A DNA stretch of 64,000 nt from Escherichia coli (GTDB lineage Bacteria > Pseudomonadota > Gammaproteobacteria > Enterobacterales > Enterobacteriaceae). Every line of letters starts with the position of its first letter. Positions within the stretch are counted from its first letter, which is position 1. This document shows, piece by piece, positions 2,890 to 49,739 of the stretch. The stretch is from the NCBI RefSeq assembly GCF_046105845.1, contig NZ_CP151004.1; one strand, written 5' to 3'. The notes beneath the pieces are model-generated. The model had not been told where the DNA came from, did not search any database, and was given only the letters and a program-made list of their open reading frames with translations. Made by a program: the position numbers and the translations under genes.

Positions 2890-4425
2890 ATGGCTACATC
2901 AGTACAGACAGGTAAAGCTAAGCAGCTCACATTACTCGGATTTTTTGCCATAACGGCATCGATGGTAATGGCTGTTTATGAATACCCTACCTTCGCAACA
3001 TCGGGCTTTTCATTAGTCTTCTTCCTGCTATTAGGCGGGATTTTATGGTTTATTCCCGTGGGACTTTGTGCTGCGGAAATGGCCACCGTCGACGGCTGGG
3101 AAGAAGGTGGTGTCTTCGCCTGGGTATCAAATACTCTGGGGCCGAGATGGGGATTTGCAGCGATCTCATTTGGCTATCTGCAAATCGCCATTGGTTTTAT
3201 TCCGATGCTCTATTTCGTGTTAGGGGCACTCTCCTACATCCTGAAATGGCCAGCGCTGAATGAAGACCCTATTACCAAAACTATTGCAGCACTCATCATT
3301 CTTTGGGCGCTGGCATTAACGCAGTTTGGTGGCACAAAATACACGGCGCGAATTGCTAAAGTTGGCTTCTTCGCCGGTATCCTGTTACCTGCATTTATTT
3401 TGATCGCATTAGCGGCTATTTATCTGCACTCCGGTGCCCCCGTTGCTATCGAAATGGATTCGAAGACCTTCTTCCCTGACTTCTCTAAAGTGGGCACCCT
3501 GGTTGTATTTGTTGCCTTCATTTTGAGTTATATGGGCGTTGAAGCTTCCGCAACCCACGTCAATGAAATGAGCAATCCAGGGCGTGACTATCCACTGGCT
3601 ATGTTACTGCTGATGGTGGCGGCAATCTGCTTAAGCTCTGTTGGCGGTTTGTCTATTGCGATGGTCATTCCGGGTAATGAAATCAACCTCTCCGCAGGGG
3701 TAATGCAAACCTTTACCGTTCTGATGTCCCATGTGGCACCGGAAATTGAGTGGACGGTTCGCGTGATCTCCGCACTGCTGTTACTGGGTGTTCTGGCGGA
3801 AATCGCCTCCTGGATTGTTGGTCCTTCTCGCGGGATGTATGTCACAGCGCAGAAAAACCTGCTGCCAGCGGCATTCGCTAAAATGAACAAAAATGGCGTA
3901 CCGGTAACGCTGGTCATTTCGCAGCTGGTGATTACTTCTATCGCGTTGATCATCCTCACCAATACCGGTGGCGGTAACAACATGTCCTTCCTGATCGCAC
4001 TGGCGCTGACGGTGGTGATTTATCTGTGTGCTTATTTCATGCTGTTTATTGGCTACATTGTGTTGGTTCTTAAACATCCTGACTTAAAACGCACATTTAA
4101 TATCCCTGGTGGTAAAGGGGTGAAACTGGTCGTGGCTGTTGTCGGTCTGCTGACTTCAATTATGGCGTTTATTGTTTCCTTCCTGCCGCCGGATAACATC
4201 CAGGGTGACTCTACCGATATGTATGTTGAATTACTGGTCGTTAGTTTCCTGGTGGTACTTGCCCTGCCCTTTATTCTCTATGCTGTTCATGATCGTAAAG
4301 GCAAAGGGAATACCGGCGTCACTCTGGAGCCAATCAACAGTCAGAACGCACCAAAAGGTCACTTCTTCCTGCACCCGCGTGCACGTTCACCACACTATAT
4401 TGTGATGAATGACAAGAAACACTAA
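2890..4425 (+). CDS. gadC: Glutamate:GABA antiporter (APC family), 511 aa
   Basis: Track ORF; ATG start; multi-pass membrane protein recognised as GadC; operonic with gadB. Confidence 0.97.
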
Positions 4426-4555
4426 CCATGTCTGAATGGTTATAAGATAAGGGAGCGATAATTCATCGCTCCCTTTTTCGTGCTTGCTGTCGTATTGACT
4501 TAACCGGGATAAGTACGAGAATGAGCGCACATCTGTTTACCGGAAACCAGCACAT

Positions 4556-5875
4556 ATGGATATCTGCTCCCGAAACGAGAAATTAGCGATTAGAAGACCA
4601 GCGGTACTGGTTGCACTGGCACTTTTACTGTGTAGTTGCAAAAGCACGCCTCCAGAGTCAATGGTGACACCACCAACAGGTTCGAAGCCACCAGCTACGA
4701 CGCAACAATCGTCACAACCGATGCGTGGCATCTGGCTGGCCACAGTGTCTCGCCTCGACTGGCCACCGGTTTCCTCGGTTAACATTAGTAACCCCACCAG
4801 CCGGGCCCGTGTACAACAACAGGCGATGATCGACAAACTGGATCATCTGCAACGTCTCGGCATAAACACGGTCTTTTTCCAGGTCAAGCCAGACGGTACC
4901 GCCCTGTGGCCATCGAAAATTTTGCCGTGGTCCGATCTTATGACCGGTAAGATTGGTGAAAATCCGGGTTACGATCCGCTGCAATTTATGCTCGACGAAG
5001 CCCACAAGCGTGGGATGAAAGTACACGCCTGGTTTAACCCCTATCGCGTATCGGTTAATACGAAGCCCGGTACTATCAGGGAACTGAATAGCACTCTGTC
5101 TCAACAACCAGCGAGCGTCTATGTGCAACACCGCGACTGGATCAGAACGTCCGGCGATCGCTTTGTCCTCGACCCGGGCATCCCTGAGGTTCAGGACTGG
5201 ATCACATCAATAGTCGCAGAAGTGGTTTCCCGCTATCCGGTAGATGGCGTGCAGTTTGACGACTATTTCTATACTGAGTCACCAGCTTCACGGCTAAATG
5301 ATAACGAAACGTACCGCAAATACGGAGGCGCATTTGCGTCAAAAGCAGACTGGCGGCGCAACAATACTCAGCAGTTAATTGCGAAGGTATCGCACACCAT
5401 TAAAAGCATTAAGCCGGAAGTCGAATTTGGCGTTAGCCCGGCAGGCGTGTGGCGTAACCGATCACACGATCCGCTCGGTTCCGATACCCGAGGCGCGGCA
5501 GCCTATGACGAATCATACGCTGACACCCGTCGATGGGTGGAACAAGGATTGCTGGATTACATTGCTCCCCAAATTTACTGGCCGTTCTCACGGAGTGCCG
5601 CACGTTATGACGTTTTGGCAAAATGGTGGGCGGATGTCGTTAAACCGACCAGGACCCGCCTGTATATCGGTATCGCCTTCTATAAAGTGGGTGAACCTTC
5701 AAAGATAGAGCCAGACTGGATGATTAACGGCGGCGTACCGGAACTGAAAAAGCAGCTCGATCTTAACGATGCCGTGCCAGAAATTAGCGGCACAATCTTG
5801 TTCCGTGAGGACTATCTGAATAAACCGCAGACTCAACAAGCGGTTAGCTATCTGCAAAGTCGTTGGGGCAGTTAA
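4556..5875 (+). CDS. yddW: Putative lipoprotein YddW (glycoside hydrolase-like family), 439 aa
   Basis: Track ORF; N-terminal signal with LLCSC lipobox-like motif; position between gadC and dosC. Confidence 0.85.
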   Translation: MDICSRNEKLAIRRPAVLVALALLLCSCKSTPPESMVTPPTGSKPPATTQQSSQPMRGIWLATVSRLDWPPVSSVNISNPTSRARVQQQAMIDKLDHLQRLGINTVFFQVKPDGTALWPSKILPWSDLMTGKIGENPGYDPLQFMLDEAHKRGMKVHAWFNPYRVSVNTKPGTIRELNSTLSQQPASVYVQHRDWIRTSGDRFVLDPGIPEVQDWITSIVAEVVSRYPVDGVQFDDYFYTESPASRLNDNETYRKYGGAFASKADWRRNNTQQLIAKVSHTIKSIKPEVEFGVSPAGVWRNRSHDPLGSDTRGAAAYDESYADTRRWVEQGLLDYIAPQIYWPFSRSAARYDVLAKWWADVVKPTRTRLYIGIAFYKVGEPSKIEPDWMINGGVPELKKQLDLNDAVPEISGTILFREDYLNKPQTQQAVSYLQSRWGS

Positions 5876-5892
5876 ACTCCCATTCTTACTTT

Positions 5893-5927
5893 GTAACAAG
5901 CCGGTGCTTTCCCCCCCGGCTTGTTAC
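5893..5927 (+). terminator. Terminator-like hairpin after yddW (12-bp perfect stem GTAACAAGCCGG / CCGGCTTGTTAC)
   Basis: Perfect 12-bp inverted repeat with 11-nt loop immediately 3' of yddW; weak T-tract. Confidence 0.45.
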
Positions 5928-6251
5928 CCTCTTGAAATATCCCACTAGTAATCATGCTTACTTAAGTCAAATTAACTACGCAATTAACCACACTTAGTTA
6001 AACAGTCATAAACCCCCTAATAAAAATGTATGAATATGAAAAAACATACGATATTCGCTGTCACCGAAAAATAATTACGATGGGCTATACTCTTCTGAAG
6101 AACAGTAGCGTAGATTGAAACTGTCCTAAGTCGCTTATTTGTTTTCAGTATATCTTCATATTTCAGGAGAATATGGTGCAGTTAGTCGATCTCGCACGTT
6201 GCGTTTCGTTTTGATTCCGTCTGCTTTCCCAGCCTTATAAGGGTGTGAATT

Positions 6252-7634
6252 ATGGAGATGTATTTTAAAAGAATGAAAGATGAGTGGACCGGGCTTGTCG
6301 AACAAGCAGATCCGCTCATTCGTGCTAAAGCCGCGGAAATTGCCGTTGCGCATGCCCATTATCTGAGTATTGAGTTTTACCGAATTGTCCGTATCGACCC
6401 GCATGCCGAAGAATTCTTGAGTAATGAACAAGTTGAGCGGCAGTTGAAAAGTGCGATGGAACGCTGGATTATTAACGTGCTTTCTGCCCAGGTTGACGAT
6501 GTCGAAAGGCTAATACAAATCCAGCATACCGTCGCGGAAGTGCATGCCCGCATAGGAATTCCGGTAGAAATTGTCGAGATGGGGTTTCGGGTGCTGAAAA
6601 AAATCCTCTATCCGGTAATCTTCTCTTCGGATTATTCCGCCGCAGAAAAACTTCAGGTCTACCATTTCTCTATTAACAGTATTGATATCGCTATGGAAGT
6701 GATGACCCGCGCGTTTACCTTTAGTGACAGTAGTGCCTCAAAGGAAGATGAAAACTATCGTATCTTCTCGTTACTGGAAAATGCCGAAGAAGAAAAAGAA
6801 CGGCAAATAGCCTCATTACTTTCATGGGAAATAGATATTATCTATAAAGTCCTACTGGATTCTGATTTAGGCAGTAGTTTGCCTTTAAGCCAGGCTGATT
6901 TTGGCCTGTGGTTTAACCATAAAGGTCGACATTATTTTAGCGGCATAGCCGAAGTGGGCCATATCTCCCGTCTGATTCAGGATTTCGACGGTATTTTCAA
7001 TCAAACCATGCGTAACACCAGGAATTTGAATAACAGAAGTTTGCGGGTGAAATTTTTATTACAGATAAGAAATACCGTATCGCAAATTATTACCTTGCTG
7101 CGTGAATTGTTTGAAGAAGTATCGCGCCACGAAGTCGGTATGGATGTACTGACGAAATTACTTAACCGCCGTTTCCTGCCGACGATCTTCAAACGCGAAA
7201 TTGCCCATGCCAACCGGACCGGTACACCGCTGTCAGTGCTGATTATTGACGTTGATAAATTCAAAGAGATTAACGATACGTGGGGCCATAACACTGGCGA
7301 TGAAATTCTGCGTAAAGTCTCTCAGGCCTTTTATGACAACGTCCGCAGTAGTGATTATGTTTTCCGCTACGGGGGCGATGAATTTATCATTGTTTTGACT
7401 GAAGCTTCGGAAAACGAAACGTTACGTACCGCAGAACGTATTCGCAGTCGGGTGGAGAAAACCAAACTGAAAGCCGCGAACGGCGAAGATATTGCCCTCT
7501 CACTTTCCATCGGTGCCGCCATGTTTAATGGTCATCCTGACTATGAGCGCCTCATTCAAATAGCCGATGAAGCTCTGTATATCGCCAAAAGACGAGGTAG
7601 AAACCGTGTTGAACTCTGGAAAGCCAGTCTTTAG
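6252..7634 (+). CDS. dosC: Oxygen-sensing diguanylate cyclase DosC (globin sensor + GGDEF), 460 aa
   Basis: Track ORF; GGDEF-domain C-terminus (RYGGDEF motif visible); recognised as DosC/YddV. Confidence 0.95.
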   Translation: MEMYFKRMKDEWTGLVEQADPLIRAKAAEIAVAHAHYLSIEFYRIVRIDPHAEEFLSNEQVERQLKSAMERWIINVLSAQVDDVERLIQIQHTVAEVHARIGIPVEIVEMGFRVLKKILYPVIFSSDYSAAEKLQVYHFSINSIDIAMEVMTRAFTFSDSSASKEDENYRIFSLLENAEEEKERQIASLLSWEIDIIYKVLLDSDLGSSLPLSQADFGLWFNHKGRHYFSGIAEVGHISRLIQDFDGIFNQTMRNTRNLNNRSLRVKFLLQIRNTVSQIITLLRELFEEVSRHEVGMDVLTKLLNRRFLPTIFKREIAHANRTGTPLSVLIIDVDKFKEINDTWGHNTGDEILRKVSQAFYDNVRSSDYVFRYGGDEFIIVLTEASENETLRTAERIRSRVEKTKLKAANGEDIALSLSIGAAMFNGHPDYERLIQIADEALYIAKRRGRNRVELWKASL

Positions 7635-7658: not shown

Positions 7659-10058
7659 ATGAAGCTAACCGATGCGGATAATGCCGCCGATGGCATTTTT
7701 TTCCCCGCCCTTGAGCAAAATATGATGGGCGCGGTGTTAATTAACGAAAATGATGAAGTGATGTTTTTCAACCCCGCCGCAGAGAAGCTCTGGGGGTACA
7801 AACGTGAAGAAGTTATTGGCAATAACATTGATATGCTGATTCCGCGGGATTTGCGTCCCGCGCATCCTGAATACATCCGTCACAACCGTGAAGGCGGTAA
7901 AGCGCGCGTCGAGGGGATGAGTCGGGAGCTGCAGCTGGAGAAAAAAGACGGCAGTAAAATCTGGACCCGTTTTGCGCTATCGAAAGTGAGCGCCGAGGGT
8001 AAAATTTATTACCTGGCGCTGGTACGAGATGCCAGCGTAGAAATGGCGCAAAAAGAACAGACCCGACAATTGATTATTGCCGTTGACCATCTCGACCGAC
8101 CGGTGATTGTCCTCGATCCGGAACGCCATATTGTGCAGTGCAATCGCGCATTTACCGAAATGTTTGGTTACTGCATTAGCGAAGCCAGCGGTATGCAGCC
8201 CGATACACTCCTGAACATTCCAGAATTCCCTGCTGATAACCGCATTCGTTTACAACAGTTGCTATGGAAAACCGCCCGCGATCAGGACGAATTTCTGCTG
8301 TTGACGCGCACCGGTGAAAAAATCTGGATTAAAGCCTCTATCAGCCCGGTCTATGATGTGCTCGCGCATCTGCAGAACCTGGTAATGACTTTCTCGGATA
8401 TCACCGAAGAACGGCAAATCCGCCAGCTTGAAGGCAATATTCTCGCCGCCATGTGCAGCAGCCCGCCATTTCATGAAATGGGGGAAATCATTTGTCGTAA
8501 CATCGAATCTGTTCTCAACGAATCGCATGTTTCGCTGTTCGCGCTGCGCAACGGGATGCCGATACACTGGGCGTCATCTTCGCACGGTACAGAAGTTCAA
8601 AATGCGCAAAGCTGGTCAGCGACCATTCGTCAGCGTGATGGCGCGCCGGCGGGGATCCTGCAAATTAAAACCTCGTCAGGAGCAGAAACCAGCGCCTTTA
8701 TCGAACGCGTGGCAGATATCAGCCAGCATATGGCCGCGCTGGCGCTGGAACAGGAAAAAAGCCGTCAGCATATTGAACAACTCATCCAATTTGATCCGAT
8801 GACCGGTCTGCCAAATCGCAATAACCTGCACAATTACCTCGATGACCTGGTCGACAAAGCCGTCTCTCCGGTGGTGTATCTCATCGGTGTTGACCATATT
8901 CAGGATGTGATTGATAGCCTTGGCTATGCGTGGGCCGATCAGGCATTGCTGGAAGTGGTCAATCGCTTTCGTGAAAAACTCAAACCGGATCAGTATCTCT
9001 GTCGTATCGAAGGTACGCAGTTTGTCCTCGTGAGCCTGGAAAACGACGTCAGTAACATTACCCAGATCGCCGATGAGCTACGGAATGTGGTCAGCAAGCC
9101 GATAATGATTGACGATAAACCATTCCCGCTTACCTTGAGTATTGGCATCAGCTACGACGTGGGTAAAAACCGCGATTACCTGCTCTCCACTGCTCACAAT
9201 GCAATGGATTATATTCGCAAGAATGGCGGTAACGGCTGGCAGTTCTTCAGCCCGGCGATGAACGAAATGGTAAAAGAGCGTTTGGTTTTAGGCGCAGCGC
9301 TGAAAGAAGCGATTAGCAATAACCAACTGAAACTGGTTTACCAGCCACAAATCTTCGCAGAAACGGGTGAACTCTACGGCATCGAAGCCCTTGCTCGCTG
9401 GCACGATCCCCTGCATGGTCATGTGCCCCCTTCACGGTTTATTCCTCTCGCAGAAGAGATTGGTGAAATCGAAAATATTGGGCGCTGGGTCATCGCGGAA
9501 GCTTGCCGTCAGTTAGCAGAATGGCGTAGCCAGAATATTCATATCCCGGCGTTATCCGTTAACTTGTCGGCGCTGCACTTTCGCAGTAATCAACTGCCTA
9601 ATCAGGTGTCTGATGCAATGCACGCCTGGGGTATTGACGGCCACCAGCTGACGGTGGAAATCACGGAAAGCATGATGATGGAACACGATACCGAAATCTT
9701 TAAGCGCATTCAGATCCTGCGCGATATGGGCGTGGGTTTATCGGTAGATGATTTTGGCACGGGCTTTTCCGGATTATCCCGCTTAGTCAGTCTTCCGGTA
9801 ACGGAAATCAAAATTGACAAAAGTTTTGTCGATCGTTGTCTGACCGAAAAACGCATCCTTGCCTTACTTGAAGCCATTACCAGCATTGGGCAAAGCCTTA
9901 ATTTAACCGTCGTGGCGGAAGGCGTCGAAACCAAAGAGCAATTTGAGATGCTACGCAAGATCCACTGTCGCGTTATTCAGGGATATTTCTTTTCCCGCCC
10001 CCTGCCCGCCGAAGAAATTCCAGGCTGGATGAGCAGCGTGTTACCGCTGAAAATCTGA
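7659..10058 (+). CDS. dosP: Oxygen-sensing c-di-GMP phosphodiesterase DosP (PAS-PAS-GGDEF-EAL), 799 aa
   Basis: Track ORF 7635..10058; start placed at internal Met MKLTDADNA...; EAL motif region present; immediately follows dosC. Confidence 0.93.
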   Translation: MKLTDADNAADGIFFPALEQNMMGAVLINENDEVMFFNPAAEKLWGYKREEVIGNNIDMLIPRDLRPAHPEYIRHNREGGKARVEGMSRELQLEKKDGSKIWTRFALSKVSAEGKIYYLALVRDASVEMAQKEQTRQLIIAVDHLDRPVIVLDPERHIVQCNRAFTEMFGYCISEASGMQPDTLLNIPEFPADNRIRLQQLLWKTARDQDEFLLLTRTGEKIWIKASISPVYDVLAHLQNLVMTFSDITEERQIRQLEGNILAAMCSSPPFHEMGEIICRNIESVLNESHVSLFALRNGMPIHWASSSHGTEVQNAQSWSATIRQRDGAPAGILQIKTSSGAETSAFIERVADISQHMAALALEQEKSRQHIEQLIQFDPMTGLPNRNNLHNYLDDLVDKAVSPVVYLIGVDHIQDVIDSLGYAWADQALLEVVNRFREKLKPDQYLCRIEGTQFVLVSLENDVSNITQIADELRNVVSKPIMIDDKPFPLTLSIGISYDVGKNRDYLLSTAHNAMDYIRKNGGNGWQFFSPAMNEMVKERLVLGAALKEAISNNQLKLVYQPQIFAETGELYGIEALARWHDPLHGHVPPSRFIPLAEEIGEIENIGRWVIAEACRQLAEWRSQNIHIPALSVNLSALHFRSNQLPNQVSDAMHAWGIDGHQLTVEITESMMMEHDTEIFKRIQILRDMGVGLSVDDFGTGFSGLSRLVSLPVTEIKIDKSFVDRCLTEKRILALLEAITSIGQSLNLTVVAEGVETKEQFEMLRKIHCRVIQGYFFSRPLPAEEIPGWMSSVLPLKI

Positions 10059-10071
10059 CAAATTCCTCTCG

Positions 10072-10094
10072 CCCGCACTCGCGGGTTTTCCTTT
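10072..10094 (+). terminator. Rho-independent terminator after dosP (CCCGC-ACTC-GCGGG then TTTTCCTTT)
   Basis: GC stem plus T-tract 14 bp after dosP stop. Confidence 0.5.
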
Positions 10095-10315
10095 AAAGTG
10101 ACACTGTCACTTAAATACTGTGATTTCAGCTACGATTCCGGGAGATTCCTTCCTTAACTTCCCCTCTTGCACCAAAACTGCACTACGCTGCACAAATGTT
10201 GATCAAAAGTTAAAAAATATAACTTTAAGCCAGCATTCTGGCGCTTATCCCGGCATGGCATGAGATCTGCATAAGCGGAAAGCGCAGCAATTTTTGTCTT
10301 ATACAGGAACCGTTT

Positions 10316-10897
10316 ATGTCGGATACCACCGAACTGGTTGATTTAGCCGTGATCTTCCCTGATCTGGAGATCGAATTGAAATACGCCTGCGCTGATAACA
10401 TCACAGGTAAAGCTATTTATCAGCAAGCGCGTTGTCTGTTACACAAGGATGCGATTACCGCGCTGGCGAAAAGTATCAGTATCGCCCAGCTGTCAGGCTT
10501 ACAACTGGTGATTTACGATGCGTATCGCCCACAACAAGCACAGGCGATGTTGTGGCAAACCTGCCCAGACCCGCAATATGTTGTTGATGTGGCGGTCGGT
10601 TCTAATCACAGCCGTGGCACGGCGATCGACCTGACGCTTCGTGATGAGCACGGGAACATCCTGGATATGGGTGCAGAGTTCGATGAAATGCACGAACGTT
10701 CCCATGCTTATCACCCTTCCGTCCCGCCCGCTGCTCAGCGCAATCGGCTGTTGCTGAATGCGATTATGACTGGCGGTGGCTTTGTCGGTATCCCGAGCGA
10801 ATGGTGGCACTTCGAATTACCCCTGGCAGCGAGTTACCCACTACTCGCTGATCAATTCACCTGTTTTATATCCCCTGGCACACAGCACGCCAGTTAA
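10316..10897 (+). CDS. ddpX: D-alanyl-D-alanine dipeptidase (VanX homolog), 193 aa
   Basis: Track ORF; ATG start; first gene of ddp operon. Confidence 0.93.
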   Translation: MSDTTELVDLAVIFPDLEIELKYACADNITGKAIYQQARCLLHKDAITALAKSISIAQLSGLQLVIYDAYRPQQAQAMLWQTCPDPQYVVDVAVGSNHSRGTAIDLTLRDEHGNILDMGAEFDEMHERSHAYHPSVPPAAQRNRLLLNAIMTGGGFVGIPSEWWHFELPLAASYPLLADQFTCFISPGTQHAS

Positions 10898-36362: not shown

Positions 36363-37903
36363 AAATACGTTCGCAAGTCGGCATGGTGCTTAACCTCGAT
36401 AAATGTATCGGCTGCCATACCTGTTCGGTGACCTGTAAAAACGTCTGGACCGGACGCGAAGGCATGGAGTACGCATGGTTTAACAACGTCGAAACCAAAC
36501 CGGGCATTGGTTATCCGAAAAACTGGGAAGATCAGGAAGAGTGGCAAGGCGGCTGGGTGCGTGATGTGAATGGCAAGATCCGCCCGCGTCTGGGCAGCAA
36601 GATGGGCGTAATAACCAAAATCTTCGCCAACCCGGTGGTGCCGCAGATTGATGATTACTACGAACCTTTCACCTTCGACTACGAACATTTGCATAGCGCA
36701 CCGGAAGGCAAACATATCCCTACTGCTCGCCCGCGTTCACTGATTGACGGCAAACGGATGGACAAAGTGATCTGGGGGCCAAACTGGGAAGAACTGCTGG
36801 GCGGCGAATTTGAAAAACGCGCCCGCGACCGCAACTTCGAGGCCATGCAAAAGGAGATGTACGGGCAGTTTGAAAACACCTTCATGATGTACCTGCCGCG
36901 CTTGTGCGAACACTGCCTCAATCCCAGTTGCGTGGCGACCTGCCCAAGCGGCGCTATCTACAAACGCGAAGAAGACGGCATTGTGCTGATCGATCAGGAT
37001 AAATGCCGTGGCTGGCGTTTGTGCATTAGCGGTTGTCCGTACAAAAAAATCTACTTCAACTGGAAAAGCGGCAAGTCAGAAAAATGTATCTTCTGTTACC
37101 CACGAATTGAGTCAGGCCAACCCACCGTGTGCTCAGAAACCTGCGTGGGTCGCATCCGGTATCTGGGCGTGCTGCTTTACGACGCCGACCGCATCGAGGA
37201 AGCGGCGAGCACCGAGCGCGAAGTTGACCTCTATGAACGCCAGTGCGAAGTGTTCCTCGATCCGCACGATCCCTCAGTGATCGAAGAAGCCCTGAAACAA
37301 GGTATTCCACAAAACGTGATTGAAGCTGCCCAGCGTTCGCCAGTCTACAAAATGGCGATGGACTGGAAACTGGCGTTACCGCTGCACCCTGAATACCGCA
37401 CCCTGCCGATGGTCTGGTACGTTCCTCCGCTGTCACCGATTCAGTCTTACGCTGATGCGGGCGGTTTGCCGAAAAGCGAAGGCGTGCTCCCAGCCATCGA
37501 GAGCCTGCGTATTCCTGTGCAATATCTCGCCAATATGTTAAGTGCTGGCGATACCGGTCCGGTACTGCGGGCGCTAAAACGGATGATGGCGATGCGCCAC
37601 TATATGCGTTCACAAACCGTGGAAGGCGTTACCGATACCCGCGCCATTGACGAAGTAGGCCTGAGCGTCGCCCAGGTCGAAGAGATGTATCGCTACCTCG
37701 CCATTGCCAACTATGAAGACCGTTTTGTCATTCCAACCAGTCATCGGGAAATGGCGGGCGATGCCTTCGCAGAACGCAATGGCTGCGGTTTTACCTTTGG
37801 CGACGGTTGCCACGGCTCGGACAGCAAATTCAACCTGTTCAACAGTAGCCGTATCGATGCCATCAACATCACCGAAGTGCGCGACAAAGCGGAGGGCGAA
37901 TAA
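36359..37903 (+). CDS. narY: Respiratory nitrate reductase Z beta subunit (Fe-S), 514 aa
   Basis: Track ORF; Cys-cluster motifs; overlaps narZ stop. Confidence 0.96.
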   Translation: MKIRSQVGMVLNLDKCIGCHTCSVTCKNVWTGREGMEYAWFNNVETKPGIGYPKNWEDQEEWQGGWVRDVNGKIRPRLGSKMGVITKIFANPVVPQIDDYYEPFTFDYEHLHSAPEGKHIPTARPRSLIDGKRMDKVIWGPNWEELLGGEFEKRARDRNFEAMQKEMYGQFENTFMMYLPRLCEHCLNPSCVATCPSGAIYKREEDGIVLIDQDKCRGWRLCISGCPYKKIYFNWKSGKSEKCIFCYPRIESGQPTVCSETCVGRIRYLGVLLYDADRIEEAASTEREVDLYERQCEVFLDPHDPSVIEEALKQGIPQNVIEAAQRSPVYKMAMDWKLALPLHPEYRTLPMVWYVPPLSPIQSYADAGGLPKSEGVLPAIESLRIPVQYLANMLSAGDTGPVLRALKRMMAMRHYMRSQTVEGVTDTRAIDEVGLSVAQVEEMYRYLAIANYEDRFVIPTSHREMAGDAFAERNGCGFTFGDGCHGSDSKFNLFNSSRIDAINITEVRDKAEGE

Positions 37904-38598: not shown

Positions 38599-39275
38599 TT
38601 CAGTATCTGAACGTCTTTTTTTATGATATCTACCCGTACATTTGTGCGACAGTGTTTTTCCTCGGCAGCTGGCTGCGCTACGACTACGGGCAGTATACCT
38701 GGCGCGCCTCCTCGAGTCAGATGCTCGATAAACGCGGGATGGTGATATGGTCGAATCTGTTCCATATCGGCATTTTGGGGATTTTCTTCGGGCACCTGTT
38801 CGGCATGTTAACGCCGCACTGGATGTACGCGTGGTTTTTGCCAGTGGCAGCGAAACAACTAATGGCGATGGTGCTCGGCGGTATTTGCGGTGTGTTGACG
38901 TTGATTGGCAGCGCAGGACTGCTGTGGCGCAGGCTGACTAATCAGCGTGTGCGTGCCACTTCCACTACGCCGGATATTATCATCATGAGCATTTTGCTGA
39001 TCCAGTGTCTGCTGGGGCTAAGTACCATACCGTTTTCAGCACAGTATCCTGATGGTAGCGAAATGATGAAGCTGGTGGGTTGGGCGCAAAGCATTGTCAC
39101 TTTCCGTGGTGGATCGTCAGAGATGCTCAACGGCGTAGCGTTCGTCTTCCGCTTGCATCTGGTGTTGGGAATGACCATCTTCCTGCTCTTCCCGTTCACC
39201 AGACTGGTGCATGTGTGGAGCGCGCCGTTTGAGTACTTTACTCGTCGGTATCAGATTGTGCGTTCGCGGCGATAA
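38595..39275 (+). CDS. narV: Respiratory nitrate reductase Z gamma subunit (cytochrome b), 226 aa
   Basis: Track ORF; overlaps narW stop by 4 nt. Confidence 0.95.
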
Positions 39276-39354: not shown

Positions 39355-40248
39355 ATGAAACCGCAGGTTTACCACGTCGATGCTTTTACCTCACAACCGT
39401 TTCGCGGCAATTCTGCCGGTGTTGTTTTCCCCGCCGATAATCTCAGTGAAGCGCAAATGCAGCTTATCGCCCGCGAATTAGGTCATTCCGAAACTGCTTT
39501 TCTGCTGCACAGCGACGACAGCGATGTGCGCATCCGCTACTTTACGCCAACAGTTGAAGTGCCGATTTGTGGTCACGCGACAGTAGCTGCGCACTATGTA
39601 CGTGCGAAGGTGTTAGGTTTAGGAAATTGCACGGTCTGGCAAACGTCACTGGCAGGAAAACATCGCGTGACTATCGAAAATCACAATGATGATTATCGTA
39701 TTTCACTGGAACAAGGTCCGCCGGGCTTTGAACCGCCGCTGGAGGATGAAGTACGCGCGGCGATTATCAACGCATTGCATCTTACTGAAGACGATATTCT
39801 GCCGGGTTTGCCGATCCAGGTCGCGACGACCGGGCATTCTAAAGTGATGATCCCGTTGAAGCCGGAAGTGGATATCGACGCTCTTTCGCCTGACCTTAAT
39901 GCGCTGACCGCTATCAGTAAACAGATTGGCTGCAATGGTTTCTTCCCGTTCCAGATCCGCCCAGGCAAAAACGAAACCGACGGTCGTATGTTCTCGCCTG
40001 CGATTGGTATTGTGGAAGATCCGGTGACTGGCAATGCCAATGGCCCGATGGGTGCATGGTTGGTACATCACAACGTATTGCCCCACGATGGCAACGTGTT
40101 GTGTGTTAAAGGCCATCAGGGGCGCGCATTGGGGCGTGACGGCGTGATTGAAGTAACGGTGACAATTCGCGATAACCAACCGGAGAAAGTCACCATTTCT
40201 GGCACAGCGGTGATTTTGTTTCATGCCGAATGGGCAATTGAATTCTGA
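39355..40248 (+). CDS. yddE: PhzF-family isomerase-like protein, 297 aa
   Basis: Track ORF; ATG start. Confidence 0.92.
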   Translation: MKPQVYHVDAFTSQPFRGNSAGVVFPADNLSEAQMQLIARELGHSETAFLLHSDDSDVRIRYFTPTVEVPICGHATVAAHYVRAKVLGLGNCTVWQTSLAGKHRVTIENHNDDYRISLEQGPPGFEPPLEDEVRAAIINALHLTEDDILPGLPIQVATTGHSKVMIPLKPEVDIDALSPDLNALTAISKQIGCNGFFPFQIRPGKNETDGRMFSPAIGIVEDPVTGNANGPMGAWLVHHNVLPHDGNVLCVKGHQGRALGRDGVIEVTVTIRDNQPEKVTISGTAVILFHAEWAIEF

Positions 40249-47636: not shown

Positions 47637-49739
47637 ATGAAGATTTTTTCCGTCCGACAGACCGTTTTGCCCGCACTGCTTGTCCTTTCCCCCGTTGTTT
47701 TTGCCGCTGATGAACAGACCATGATTGTCAGTGCCGCACCGCAGGTGGTTTCAGAACTGGATACCCCAGCAGCCGTGAGCGTGGTGGATGGCGAGGAGAT
47801 GCGCCTGGCAACACCGCGCATTAACTTGTCCGAATCACTGACCAGCGTGCCTGGTTTGCAGGTACAAAACCGGCAGAACTATGCGCAAGATTTACAGCTG
47901 TCGATTCGCGGATTTGGCTCCCGCTCCACTTACGGAATTCGCGGTATTCGCCTGTATGTGGACGGTATTCCCGCCACCATGCCCGACGGACAAGGGCAAA
48001 CATCCAACATCGATTTAAGCAGTGTACAAAATGTGGAAGTGCTGCGCGGCCCCTTCTCTGCCCTGTATGGCAACGCCTCCGGCGGGGTGATGAATGTCAC
48101 TACGCAAACCGGACAGCAACCGCCAACCATTGAAGCCAGTAGTTACTACGGCAGTTTTGGCAGCTGGCGCTATGGGCTGAAAGCAACGGGCGCAACGGGC
48201 GACGGCACACAGCCTGGCGATGTCGATTACACCGTCTCAACCACGCGCTTTACGACCCACGGCTATCGTGACCATAGCGGCGCACAGAAAAATTTGGCCA
48301 ATGCCAAACTGGGCGTACGCATTGATGAAGCCAGTAAATTAAGCCTGATTTTCAATAGTGTGGATATCAAAGCAGATGATCCTGGTGGATTAACCGAAGC
48401 AGAATGGAAGGCGAATCCGCAACAAGCGCCACGCGCTGAACAGTACGACACGCGAAAAAGCATCAAGCAAACTCAGGCTGGGTTGCGCTATGAACGTAGC
48501 CTGAGCGCACAAGATGATATGAGTGTAATGATGTATGCCGGAGAGCGAGAAACGACCCAGTACCAGTCAATACCCATGGCACCACAACTTAACCCGTCGC
48601 ATGCGGGCGGCGTGATTACTCTGCAACGCCATTATCAGGGGATAGACAGCCGCTGGACACACCGTGGCGAGCTGGGCGTTCCGGTCACGTTCACTACTGG
48701 CCTGAACTACGAAAACATGAGTGAAAACCGCAAGGGCTACAATAACTTCCGCCTGTATAGCGGCGTGCCGGAATACGGGCAAAAAGGTGAGTTGCGCCGC
48801 GACGAACGCAATCTGATGTGGAACGTCGATCCCTATTTACAGACACAGTGGCAGCTGAGTGAAAAACTGTCGCTGGATGCTGGCGTGCGCTACAGTTCCG
48901 TGTGGTTTGATTCCAACGACCATTACGTTACTCCGGGTAACGGCGATGACAGCGGTGATGCCAGTTATCACAAATGGCTACCTGCCGGATCGTTAAAATA
49001 TGCAATGACCGATGCCTGGAATATCTATCTGGCAGCCGGGCGTGGTTTTGAAACGCCGACGATTAATGAGCTGTCTTATCGTGCTGACGGTCAAAGCGGT
49101 ATGAACTTTGGTTTAAAACCATCCACCAACGATACAATTGAGATCGGCAGTAAAACGCGTATTGGTGATGGGCTGCTTAGTCTCGCATTGTTCCAGACCG
49201 ACACCGATGATGAAATTGTTGTTGATAGCAGTAGCGGTGGGCGTACGACTTACAAAAATGCCGGAAAGACCCGTCGTCAAGGCGCTGAACTGGCATGGGA
49301 TCAACGTTTCGCGGGAGATTTTCGCGTAAACGCGTCCTGGACCTGGCTCGATGCGACCTATCGCAGCAATGTGTGCAATGAACAGGATTGTAACGGTAAC
49401 CGGATGCCAGGGATCGCCCGTAATATGGGCTTTGCGTCGATAGGTTATGTACCGGAAGATGGCTGGTATGCAGGTACGGAAGCGCGTTACATGGGCGATA
49501 TTATGGCAGATGATGAAAATACGGCCAAAGCGCCGTCTTATACTCTCGTCGGCTTATTCACCGGGTATAAATACAATTACCACAATTTAACTGTGGATTT
49601 ATTTGGTTGTGTCGATAATTTATTCGATAAAGGATACGTTGGTTCTGTCATTGTCAATGAGTCAAACGGGCGATATTACGAACCTGCGCCCGGGCGAAAT
49701 TATGGTGTCGGCATGAATATTGCGTGGCGATTTGAGTAA
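47637..49739 (+). CDS. yncD: TonB-dependent outer membrane receptor, 700 aa
   Basis: Track ORF 47478..49739; start at Met MKIFSVRQTVLPALLVLSPVVFA (signal peptide); C-terminal ...AWRFE barrel terminus. Confidence 0.92.
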   Translation: MKIFSVRQTVLPALLVLSPVVFAADEQTMIVSAAPQVVSELDTPAAVSVVDGEEMRLATPRINLSESLTSVPGLQVQNRQNYAQDLQLSIRGFGSRSTYGIRGIRLYVDGIPATMPDGQGQTSNIDLSSVQNVEVLRGPFSALYGNASGGVMNVTTQTGQQPPTIEASSYYGSFGSWRYGLKATGATGDGTQPGDVDYTVSTTRFTTHGYRDHSGAQKNLANAKLGVRIDEASKLSLIFNSVDIKADDPGGLTEAEWKANPQQAPRAEQYDTRKSIKQTQAGLRYERSLSAQDDMSVMMYAGERETTQYQSIPMAPQLNPSHAGGVITLQRHYQGIDSRWTHRGELGVPVTFTTGLNYENMSENRKGYNNFRLYSGVPEYGQKGELRRDERNLMWNVDPYLQTQWQLSEKLSLDAGVRYSSVWFDSNDHYVTPGNGDDSGDASYHKWLPAGSLKYAMTDAWNIYLAAGRGFETPTINELSYRADGQSGMNFGLKPSTNDTIEIGSKTRIGDGLLSLALFQTDTDDEIVVDSSSGGRTTYKNAGKTRRQGAELAWDQRFAGDFRVNASWTWLDATYRSNVCNEQDCNGNRMPGIARNMGFASIGYVPEDGWYAGTEARYMGDIMADDENTAKAPSYTLVGLFTGYKYNYHNLTVDLFGCVDNLFDKGYVGSVIVNESNGRYYEPAPGRNYGVGMNIAWRFE

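What the first reader, a model, noticed from the sequence alone, without database searches (positions are those of the whole stretch)
10168..10272. Sigma-54-type promoter and NtrC-like TGCAC repeats upstream of ddpX
TGGCATGAGATCTGCAT at ~10256-10272 has the GG-N10-GC spacing of sigma-54 -24/-12 elements, and repeated TGCAC motifs at ~10168-10194 resemble NtrC enhancer half-sites. This fits nitrogen-limitation control of the ddp operon as I remember it, but the site calls are mine.
Basis: partly seen in the sequence, partly recalled or inferred. Interest (0 to 1): 0.25.

Follow-up and report, generated by a model that had tools for sequence, protein, structure and literature searches.

The report
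Known sigma-54/NtrC promoter of ddpX
This is the already documented nitrogen-starvation promoter of the E. coli ddpXABCDF operon; the TGCAC repeats belong to a deeply conserved, weak-consensus NtrC enhancer about 100 bp upstream of it, so the finding is correct but ordinary.

Summary
Both observations are real and at the stated coordinates. ATGGCATGAGATCTGCA (10255-10271) is the best sigma-54 PWM hit in the 64-kb window. It is letter for letter the sigma-54 ChIP-seq site OS16 published for ddpX, which is also supported by gSELEX, gel shift and rpoN/ntrC-dependent induction. This part is already known.

The three TGCAC copies (10168, 10179, 10189) form a cluster unlikely by chance. As canonical 17-bp NtrC dyads they score poorly, at 7.6 and 6.3 bits against 9.3-20.5 for reference sites.

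Comparative evidence favours NtrC all the same. A 38-bp block (10168-10205) is 94% identical in 31 promoters from other genera, while its flanks are 41-44% identical. It keeps helical register with the -24 element. In Serratia, Raoultella, Pantoea, Brenneria and Huaxiibacter, canonical NtrC sites of 12-18 bits lie upstream of the orthologous sigma-54 promoter.

I read copies 1 and 3 as the left halves of two degenerate NtrC sites 21 bp apart, centred at -106 and -85. Copy 2 lies in the right half of site A and is TGAAC in most genera.

In other genera the promoter drives an RpiR-family regulator gene placed before ddpX. Escherichia lacks that gene.

The parts
10068..10095 (+). Intrinsic terminator of dosCP (G+C-rich stem, then a T-rich tail); marks the upstream limit of the ddp control region
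   Evidence: Terminator scan. The stem is conserved in L001 and L002.
10168..10184 (+). Proposed NtrC site A, TGCACCAAAACTGCACT, centre -106 from the predicted start. The left half TGCACCA is perfect; the right half is degenerate. It contains TGCAC copies 1 and 2.
   Evidence: 9/14 consensus matches. 7.6 bits in the NtrC PWM. Left half invariant in 33 of 34 aligned promoters. The same position is TGCACCAAAAATGCGCG (14.7 bits) in Mixta.
10179..10183 (+). Middle TGCAC, lying in the right half of site A; not an independent half-site
   Evidence: It reads TGAAC in most non-Escherichia promoters. The 17-mer register starting here scores -4.9 bits.
10189..10205 (+). Proposed NtrC site B, TGCACAAATGTTGATCA, centre -85, 21 bp (two helical turns) from site A
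   Evidence: 10/14 consensus matches. 6.3 bits. Nearly invariant across 34 promoters. It matches Serratia TGCCCAAATGTTGTGCA (13.6 bits) at 14 of 17 positions and Huaxiibacter TGCACAAATGTTGTGCG (14.1 bits) at 14 of 17.
10206..10254 (+). A+T-rich spacer between enhancer and promoter. It holds a conserved GTTAA (10209-10213) and an imperfect inverted repeat. Its sequence is otherwise free, but its length is constrained to helical register.
   Evidence: 41% identity to other genera, against 94% for the block. Inverted repeat I1. Spacing classes of 66-68, 76-79 and 86-91 bp.
10255..10271 (+). Sigma-54 promoter ATGGCATGAGATCTGCA: -24 GG at 10257-10258, -12 GC at 10269-10270
   Evidence: Top PWM hit in the window, 15.7 bits. 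Identical to published ChIP-seq site OS16, and its motif centre 10263 maps to U00096.2 1561153. TGGCA and CTGCA are conserved in all 34 aligned promoters.
10282..10282 (+). Predicted transcription start, 34 nt before the ATG; not mapped experimentally in anything I could read
   Evidence: Bonocora et al. place the start 19 nt downstream of the motif centre and give a distance of 34 to ddpX. Coordinate conversion.
10316..10897 (+). ddpX, D-Ala-D-Ala dipeptidase, first gene of ddpXABCDF
   Evidence: ORF. Pfam Peptidase_M15, E = 2.4e-77. RefSeq annotation of K-12.

Best explanation
This is the sigma-54-dependent, NtrC-activated promoter of ddpXABCDF.

Shown (by published experiments on an identical sequence): RNA polymerase carrying sigma-54 binds the -24/-12 element at 10255-10271, and NtrC binds this promoter region. 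The published ChIP-seq was done in plain M9 medium, so the polymerase occupies the site without nitrogen starvation.

Inferred from the family: that complex is closed and cannot open DNA by itself.

Inferred: under nitrogen limitation, phosphorylated NtrC binds two adjacent sites, A (10168-10184, centre -106) and B (10189-10205, centre -85). The sites are 21 bp apart, so they lie on the same face of the helix. Each has a perfect left half (TGCACCA, TGCACAA) and a degenerate right half. The bound dimers assemble into the active ATPase oligomer. This contacts the polymerase by looping out the short A+T-rich spacer and drives open-complex formation, with a start near 10282.

Inferred: because both sites are far from consensus, occupancy should need high NtrC-phosphate and cooperative binding. 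That would make ddp a gene of severe nitrogen starvation.

The control region is ancestral in Enterobacterales. In most genera it drives an RpiR-family regulator gene followed by ddpX and the transporter genes. Escherichia lacks that regulator gene, so ddpX sits directly behind the promoter.
For: Sigma-54 promoter:
- Sequence and PWM.
- The identical published ChIP-seq motif and coordinate, also listed by Zhao et al..
- gSELEX, gel shifts with RpoN holoenzyme and with NtrC on a probe I map to about 9984-10393, and 104-fold induction on nitrogen depletion, which the authors attribute to RpoN plus NtrC.
- No sigma-70-type promoter in 9950-10450 by the consensus scan.

NtrC binding:
- NtrC ChIP-seq peak, 24-fold.
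- Within the gel-shift probe, sites A and B are the two best NtrC PWM hits.
- The TGCAC cluster is not a chance feature.

Comparative evidence:
- Block 10168-10205 is 94% identical in 31 non-Escherichia promoters, against 41-44% for its flanks.
- The distance from the block to the -24 element falls into classes about 10.5 bp apart. In Huaxiibacter a 10-bp duplication between the sites keeps them in phase.
- 69 of 80 species carry a sigma-54 promoter of at least 12 bits at the operon start. Of these, 26 have an NtrC PWM hit of at least 12 bits at -167 to -63, against 0.9% of background windows.
- Several of those canonical sites are clearly homologous to A or B.

Precedent in my own scans of K-12 promoters: pairs of best hits 20-22 bp apart at astC, rutA and patA, and half-site-only hits at glnAp2 -89 and -68 that score lower than A and B.
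Against: - Sites A and B score 7.6 and 6.3 bits. That is below all 13 reference sites (9.3-20.5) and only rank 37 and 58 in the window. About 6-10% of random 120-nt windows reach such scores.
- No nucleotide-resolution footprint or site mutagenesis for ddpX was found in the papers I could read.
- The reported NtrC ChIP bin (window 10235-10315) lies over the sigma-54 promoter, 30-60 bp from the sites. The same offset is seen at glnK, glnH, nac and astC, so it says little.
- The non-consensus right halves and the 4-nt gap between the sites are conserved more tightly than NtrC recognition alone would seem to need.
- The transcription start is predicted, not mapped.
- My NtrC PWM was built from sites I picked by consensus matching, so it is partly circular.
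Confidence: 0.85

Rival explanations
1. The conserved block 10168-10213 is bound by a second protein, such as a nucleoid bender like Fis or IHF or an unidentified regulator. This would be in addition to NtrC or, less likely, instead of it, and would explain why the non-NtrC positions are invariant.
For: Spacer and right-half positions that do not match the NtrC consensus are about 95-100% conserved across genera, as is GTTAA at 10209-10213. By inspection, GCACAAATGTTGATC fits the Fis-type pattern GNNYAWWWWWTRNNC, which I recall from memory, and GATCAAAAGTTAA matches about 7 of 9 positions of the IHF core WATCAANNNNTTR. The block remains unchanged in three diverged Escherichia lineages that lack the RpiR regulator.
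Against: No PWM or experiment for Fis or IHF was run here, and such degenerate patterns match often by chance. NtrC binding to the region is documented. The more distant orthologues replace the same positions with canonical NtrC dyads rather than keeping the Escherichia right halves.
Confidence: 0.15
2. TGCAC copies 1 and 2 form a second, weak sigma-54 binding site (CTTGCACCAAAACTGCA, 10166-10182), not an enhancer.
For: It is the third-best sigma-54 PWM hit in the window at 12.2 bits. Published bound sites such as potF, TATGCACGTTTATTGCA, share the TG-for-GG deviation. RpoN holoenzyme alone gave two or three shifted bands on the ddpX probe.
Against: The -24 GG is missing. The -12-like TGCA is not conserved and reads TGAA in most genera. 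[quoted passage not shown] The element has no partner enhancer upstream.
Confidence: 0.05
3. ddpX is driven mainly by a separate sigma-S or sigma-70 promoter in this space, and the sigma-54 element is secondary.
For: ddpXA is listed among RpoS-dependent genes in stationary-phase EDL933. ddpX is down in a cya mutant. I recall stationary-phase, RpoS-dependent expression from Lessard et al. 1998, which I could not read.
Against: No sigma-70-type hexamer pair was found in 9950-10450. The RpoD gSELEX study lists only an internal ddpB/ddpA site. Induction of 104-fold is attributed to RpoN plus NtrC. ddpX rises together with the NtrC-regulated transporters argT, yhdX and yhdY in a pdhR mutant, so RpoS effects may be indirect.
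Confidence: 0.08
4. The TGCAC repeats are a chance feature, and NtrC binds elsewhere in the probe.
For: Canonical PWM scores are low.
Against: Cluster statistics. The block is 94% conserved against 41-44% for its flanks. It keeps helical phasing with the promoter. No better NtrC candidate exists in 9984-10393, and the next-best hit (10229-10245, 3.1 bits) is not conserved.
Confidence: 0.03

Closest known systems
Published ddpX sigma-54 promoter (Bonocora et al. 2015 site OS16; listed in the RegulonDB sigma-54 set; NtrC target in Zimmer 2000, Brown 2014, Shimada 2021)
   Same: It is the same object. The 17-mer is identical, the genome position is the same (motif centre U00096.2 1561153 = window 10263), the downstream gene is the same, and the intergenic sequence differs from K-12 at 2 nt outside the sites.
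   Different: Nothing differs for the promoter. None of the papers I could read assigns NtrC sites at nucleotide resolution or maps the start.
glnAp2 of E. coli (the archetypal NtrC/sigma-54 promoter)
   Same: A -24/-12 promoter with NtrC sites upstream on one helical face. It also carries half-site-only hits at -89 and -68, where I recall weak NtrC sites being described (my scans).
   Different: glnAp2 has two near-consensus dyads (19-20 bits) at -140 and -108, 32 bp apart. ddpX has only two weak sites (6-8 bits), closer in at -106 and -85, and 21 bp apart.
astC, rutA and patA promoters (NtrC-dependent, sigma-54)
   Same: In my scans their two best NtrC hits lie 20-22 bp apart, as at ddpX.
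   Different: Their hits are better dyads (9-16 bits) and lie further upstream (-121 to -253).
glnHp2 (NtrC sites close together, with IHF between enhancer and promoter, as I recall it)
   Same: Closely packed NtrC sites near -108 to -134 and an A+T-rich spacer.
   Different: The glnH sites are strong (16-20 bits) and 13 bp apart. IHF involvement at ddpX is untested.

Membership tests
Sigma-54 (-24/-12) promoter | GG and GC doublets separated by exactly 10 nt within a TGGCAC-N5-TTGCW frame | tested here: met
   TGGCAT-GAGAT-CTGCA, with GG at 10257-10258 and GC at 10269-10270.
Sigma-54 (-24/-12) promoter | PWM score within the range of experimentally bound sites and above the local background | tested here: met
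   15.7 bits, the median of 49 ChIP-seq sites and rank 1 of about 128,000 positions. The second hit in the window is an independent published site, yncD IS18.
Sigma-54 (-24/-12) promoter | Occupied by sigma-54 holoenzyme | tested here: met
   Not an experiment of mine. The sequence and coordinate are identical to the published ChIP-seq site OS16 (fold above threshold 10), and gSELEX and gel shift agree.
Sigma-54 (-24/-12) promoter | Core elements conserved in orthologous promoters | tested here: met
   TGGCA and CTGCA are invariant or nearly so in 34 aligned promoters. 69 of 80 species have a site of at least 12 bits at the operon start.
Sigma-54 (-24/-12) promoter | Transcription start about 11-12 nt downstream of the -12 GC | not testable with these tools
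   Only a predicted start (window 10282) is available. No mapped start was found in the papers held.
Sigma-54 (-24/-12) promoter | Expression requires rpoN and an enhancer-binding ATPase | not testable with these tools
   Literature only. RT-qPCR shows 104-fold induction on nitrogen depletion, and the authors conclude that activation needs both RpoN and NtrC.
NtrC (GlnG) enhancer | 17-bp dyad TGCACCA-N3-TGGTGCA | tested here: not met
   Only the left halves match: 9/14 and 10/14 consensus positions, 7.6 and 6.3 bits, against 9.3-20.5 for 13 reference sites. The sites are therefore weak or half sites, not canonical dyads.
NtrC (GlnG) enhancer | At least two sites on one face of the helix, an integral number of turns apart | tested here: met
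   Centres at 10176 and 10197, 21 bp apart. A 10-bp duplication in Huaxiibacter makes the distance 31 bp.
NtrC (GlnG) enhancer | Located roughly 80-160 bp upstream of a sigma-54 start, with position constrained relative to the promoter | tested here: met
   Centres at -106 and -85. The block-to-promoter distance falls in classes of 66-68, 76-79 and 86-91 bp across 34 promoters.
NtrC (GlnG) enhancer | Orthologous promoters carry recognisable NtrC sites | tested here: met
   Hits of 12-18 bits at -107 to -164 in 26 of 69 promoters, against 0.9% of background windows. Serratia, Huaxiibacter, Brenneria, Lonsdalea and Mixta sites align with A or B.
NtrC (GlnG) enhancer | NtrC protein binds these bases | tested here: inconclusive
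   Published ChIP-seq (an 80-bp bin over the promoter) and a gel shift on a probe of about 410 bp show binding to the region, not to specific bases.

The most novel reading that the evidence does not exclude
In the Escherichia-Citrobacter-Enterobacter clade the enhancer is frozen as a block of about 38-46 bp. Its non-consensus right halves, the gap between the sites and a trailing GTTAA are as invariant as the NtrC half-sites. This would mean it is a composite element read by NtrC together with a second, unidentified DNA-binding or DNA-bending protein, or that an unusual asymmetric NtrC binding mode is under selection. In addition, Escherichia converted a locally regulated operon (RpiR-type regulator first) into a purely NtrC-controlled one by deleting the regulator gene.
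Probability: 0.2. Interest if true: 0.35.

Novelty: already known. Interest (0 to 1): 0.15.

Why it matters
The promoter and its NtrC/sigma-54 control are textbook-level database knowledge, so nothing changes for ddpX regulation.

What this analysis adds is modest:
- A nucleotide-level proposal for the NtrC enhancer: two weak sites at -106 and -85.
- Evidence that NtrC/sigma-54 control of the ddp operon is ancestral across Enterobacterales.
- The observation that Escherichia lacks the RpiR-family regulator gene that heads the operon elsewhere.

The weak but highly conserved enhancer is a convenient natural case for studying how low-affinity NtrC sites set activation thresholds.

Tried and rejected
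- Canonical NtrC PWM as a positive test: the scores are too low to support the call on their own.
- Footprinting with the DNA directly upstream of ddpX in other genera: this failed because ddpX there follows another gene. Only L001, L002 and L036 have a promoter directly upstream. Searching the fetched loci for the site-B motif then found the orthologous promoters about 1 kb upstream.
- Within-E. coli variation: too little to be informative. The intergenic space is 97.7-100% identical wherever present.
- Zimmer 2000 and Reitzer & Schneider 2001, which may list predicted NtrC sites, are not held. A search for ddpXp, ddpX promoter and ddp operon found no mapping paper.
- Sigma-70 promoter scan: none found.
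- Rfam scan of 9900-10500: only one sub-threshold chance hit, a nematode snoRNA at 16 bits against a gathering score of 35.
- Brown et al.'s ChIP bin to localise NtrC: rejected as too coarse. At glnK, glnH, nac and astC the bins also lie over the sigma-54 promoter, away from the best NtrC sites.
- Origin of the E. coli -24/-12 element: pairwise alignment could not decide between the ancestral promoter and a look-alike, CTCGCAGGACGCCTGCA, in the 3' end of the regulator gene. I assume the ancestral promoter, as the simpler deletion.
- Fis and IHF readings rest only on consensus patterns recalled from memory and were not scored.

Full report
**Context.** The window carries the E. coli dosC-dosP-ddpXABCDF region on its + strand. 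dosP ends at 10058 and ddpX (Pfam Peptidase_M15, E = 2.4e-77) starts at 10316. The 257-bp intergenic space differs from K-12 MG1655 at two positions only, 10091 and 10097, both outside the features discussed here. Experiments published for K-12 therefore apply directly.

**Observation.** Both parts of the observation are exactly as described.
- TGGCATGAGATCTGCAT lies at 10256-10272, with GG at 10257-10258, GC at 10269-10270 and 10 nt between them.
- TGCAC starts at 10168, 10179 and 10189 on the same strand.

Neither part looks like chance.
- I built a sigma-54 weight matrix from 49 other intergenic ChIP-seq sites in Bonocora et al., leaving ddpX out. It ranks 10255-10271 first in the whole window on both strands. 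The score is 15.7 bits, the median of the training sites, and 0.65 hits of that quality are expected per random 64 kb.
- The second-best hit, 49708-49724, is the published intragenic yncD site IS18, which was not in the training set. That validates the matrix.
- A same-strand triple TGCAC within 26 bp is unique in the window, against 0.027 expected.

**The sigma-54 promoter is already known.**
- The 17-mer ATGGCATGAGATCTGCA is site OS16 of the sigma-54 ChIP-seq map, with a fold-above-threshold of 10 and a predicted start 34 nt before ddpX. Its motif centre converts to window 10263, exactly as expected.
- Zhao et al. list the same sequence at -60 to -43.
- ddpX is in the RegulonDB sigma-54 promoter set.
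- Shimada et al. recovered it by gSELEX and shifted a probe with RpoN holoenzyme, with NtrC and with both. From their primers I map that probe to about 9984-10393. [quoted passage not shown]
- Brown et al. report a 24-fold NtrC ChIP-seq peak at ddpXABCDF.
- A consensus scan finds no sigma-70-type promoter between 9950 and 10450. It does find the dosP terminator at 10068-10086.

**NtrC sites scored against the consensus.** I fetched the upstream regions of 12 other NtrC/sigma-54 promoters of K-12 and scored them against the consensus TGCACCA-N3-TGGTGCA quoted by Shimada et al..
- The scan picked out near-consensus dyads (12-13 of 14 positions) at glnA -140 and -108, glnH -108 and -121, and nac -152. 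The glnA and glnH positions agree with the classical sites as I recall them.
- A symmetric matrix built from 13 such sites scores ddpX 10168-10184 at 7.6 bits and 10189-10205 at 6.3 bits. The register starting at the middle TGCAC scores -4.9 bits. The reference sites score 9.3-20.5 bits.
- Two caveats apply. Four other NtrC-bound promoters (gltI, potF, yeaG, argT) also lack good matches. The half-site-only hits at glnAp2 -89 and -68 score even lower, at 0.7 and -2.7 bits.

**Comparative evidence settles the question.** ddpX homologues from 80 species were fetched. Outside Escherichia the gene directly upstream is co-directional, so no promoter sits in front of ddpX. The site-B motif TGCACWWWTGTTGAT, however, recurs in 33 loci about 1 kb upstream. 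There it lies in front of a 289-residue RpiR-family regulator gene (HTH_6 plus SIS domains; closest NCBIfam model SapR, below its cut-off) that precedes ddpX and ddpA.

I aligned 34 such promoters.
- Block 10168-10205 is 94% identical to the window in 31 non-Escherichia sequences. The flanks are 44% (upstream) and 41% (spacer) identical.
- The TGGCA and CTGCA elements of the sigma-54 promoter are conserved.
- TGCAC copies 1 and 3 are essentially invariant. Copy 2 is TGAAC in most genera.
- The distance from site B to the -24 element falls into three classes: 66-68, 76-79 and 86-91 bp. These are steps of about one helical turn. Three raw values were offset by a duplicated TGGCAT and were corrected.

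**More distant genera carry canonical NtrC sites.** These include Serratia, Raoultella, Pantoea, Brenneria, Lonsdalea, Pluralibacter, Huaxiibacter and Mixta.
- 69 of 80 loci carry a sigma-54 promoter of at least 12 bits at the operon start.
- 26 of those have an NtrC hit of at least 12 bits (up to 18.3) between -167 and -63. Only 0.9% of background windows reach that score.
- Several of these sites are visibly homologous to A or B:

| Taxon | Sequence | Score | Relation to E. coli |
|---|---|---|---|
| Serratia | TGCCCAAATGTTGTGCA | 13.6 bits | 14 of 17 positions match site B |
| Huaxiibacter | TGCACAAATGTTGTGCG | 14.1 bits | homologous to site B |
| Mixta | TGCACCAAAAATGCGCG | 14.7 bits | at the site-A position |
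| Brenneria, Lonsdalea | two sites | 9.8-14.1 bits | exactly 21 bp apart |

- Huaxiibacter also has a 10-bp duplication between A and B, which keeps the two sites in phase.

Sites A and B are therefore degenerate orthologues of genuine NtrC dyads.

**Mechanism.**
- Shown by others on an identical sequence: sigma-54 polymerase occupies 10255-10271, NtrC binds the region, and expression rises about 100-fold under nitrogen limitation.
- Inferred here: NtrC dimers bind A (-106) and B (-85) on one face of the helix, oligomerise, and reach the closed complex by looping out the short A+T-rich spacer. The low site quality would make activation depend on high NtrC-phosphate and on cooperativity.
- The start near 10282 is a prediction.

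**Rivals.**
- *A second protein on the block (about 0.15).* This would explain why the right halves, the gap between the sites and GTTAA (10209-10213) are so invariant. Fis-like and IHF-like patterns can be read into site B, but I did not score them, and the distant orthologues put NtrC dyads there instead.
- *A second sigma-54 site at 10166-10182 (about 0.05).* It scores 12.2 bits. It lacks the GG, its -12-like part is not conserved, and the ChIP peak is centred on the main motif.
- *A separate sigma-S or sigma-70 promoter (about 0.08).* RpoS and cAMP effects are reported. No such promoter was detected, and the effects may be indirect.
- *Chance (about 0.03).*

**Novelty.** The finding is a correct rediscovery of a known promoter. 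My additions are the site-level enhancer model, the breadth of its conservation, and the absence of the regulator gene in Escherichia. The last 34 nt or so before the E. coli ATG still align with the 3' end of that gene and the short intergenic stretch behind it.

**Limits.**
- The start site and the NtrC contacts are not mapped at base resolution in anything I could read.
- The two papers most likely to list predicted NtrC sites were not available.
- My NtrC matrix is partly circular, because its sites were chosen by consensus matching.

Noticed in passing
L003:2117-2986 (and the equivalent position in about 65 other loci), compared with window 10272-10315: In Citrobacter, Enterobacter, Serratia, Pantoea and other genera the sigma-54 promoter drives a 289-residue RpiR-family regulator gene (HTH_6 + SIS, SapR-like) placed before ddpX-ddpA. 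Escherichia lacks this gene. The last 34 nt or so before the E. coli ddpX ATG still align with its 3' end and the short intergenic stretch behind it, which suggests a deletion.
   Followed up: partly
L003 about 2060-2115 and the same region in other non-Escherichia loci (alignment): Directly downstream of the -12 element the non-Escherichia promoters share TGTTAAT-N4-6-TAACAG, TGACAG and TAACAGCGAG repeats. These may be an operator for the RpiR-type regulator (autoregulation). They are absent from E. coli.
   Followed up: no
L094 (E. coli O2:H1 HM670) 3411-6619; counts: About 1,175 of 5,390 complete E. coli genomes match only the first ~79 nt of the intergenic space. In the example inspected, the whole ddp operon with its promoter is absent, dosP is followed directly by osmC, and dosC is reduced to a pseudogene fragment.
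   Followed up: partly
window 10093-10115: A near-perfect palindrome, TTAAAGTGACA-C-TGTCACTTAAA, lies just after the dosP terminator. Its core is unchanged in two diverged Escherichia lineages, although the surrounding sequence varies. It is retained in the inspected genome that lacks ddp (L094). No function assigned.
   Followed up: no
window 49708-49724 (+) and 37370-37386 (+): TCGGCATGAATATTGCG (15.2 bits) is the published intragenic sigma-54 site IS18 in yncD. CTGGCGTTACCGCTGCA resembles the published narY site IS19 (CTGGCACTACCGTTGCA) with 3 differences; I did not check whether it is the same position.
   Followed up: partly
window 39195-39211 and 39590-39606: These are the two best NtrC-PWM hits of the window: TTCACCAGACTGGTGCA at 14.6 bits and CGCACTATGTACGTGCG at 12.7 bits. 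They lie inside coding sequence (a narI-type nitrate reductase gamma subunit gene and yddE) with no sigma-54 motif nearby, so they are probably chance.
   Followed up: partly
window 10251-10261; L001 and L017: The -24 element is preceded by a 5-nt-offset partial duplicate (GGCATGGCAT; a full TGGCATGGCAT in L001 and L017). This gives two overlapping TGGCA motifs, only one of which has a correctly spaced -12 partner.
   Followed up: no
Literature: PMC11508082: Deleting pdhR in EHEC raises ddpX more than 205-fold, together with ddpA, argT, yhdX and yhdY. argT and the yhdW operon are NtrC-regulated, which hints that loss of PdhR triggers the nitrogen-starvation response rather than acting directly on this promoter.
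   Followed up: no
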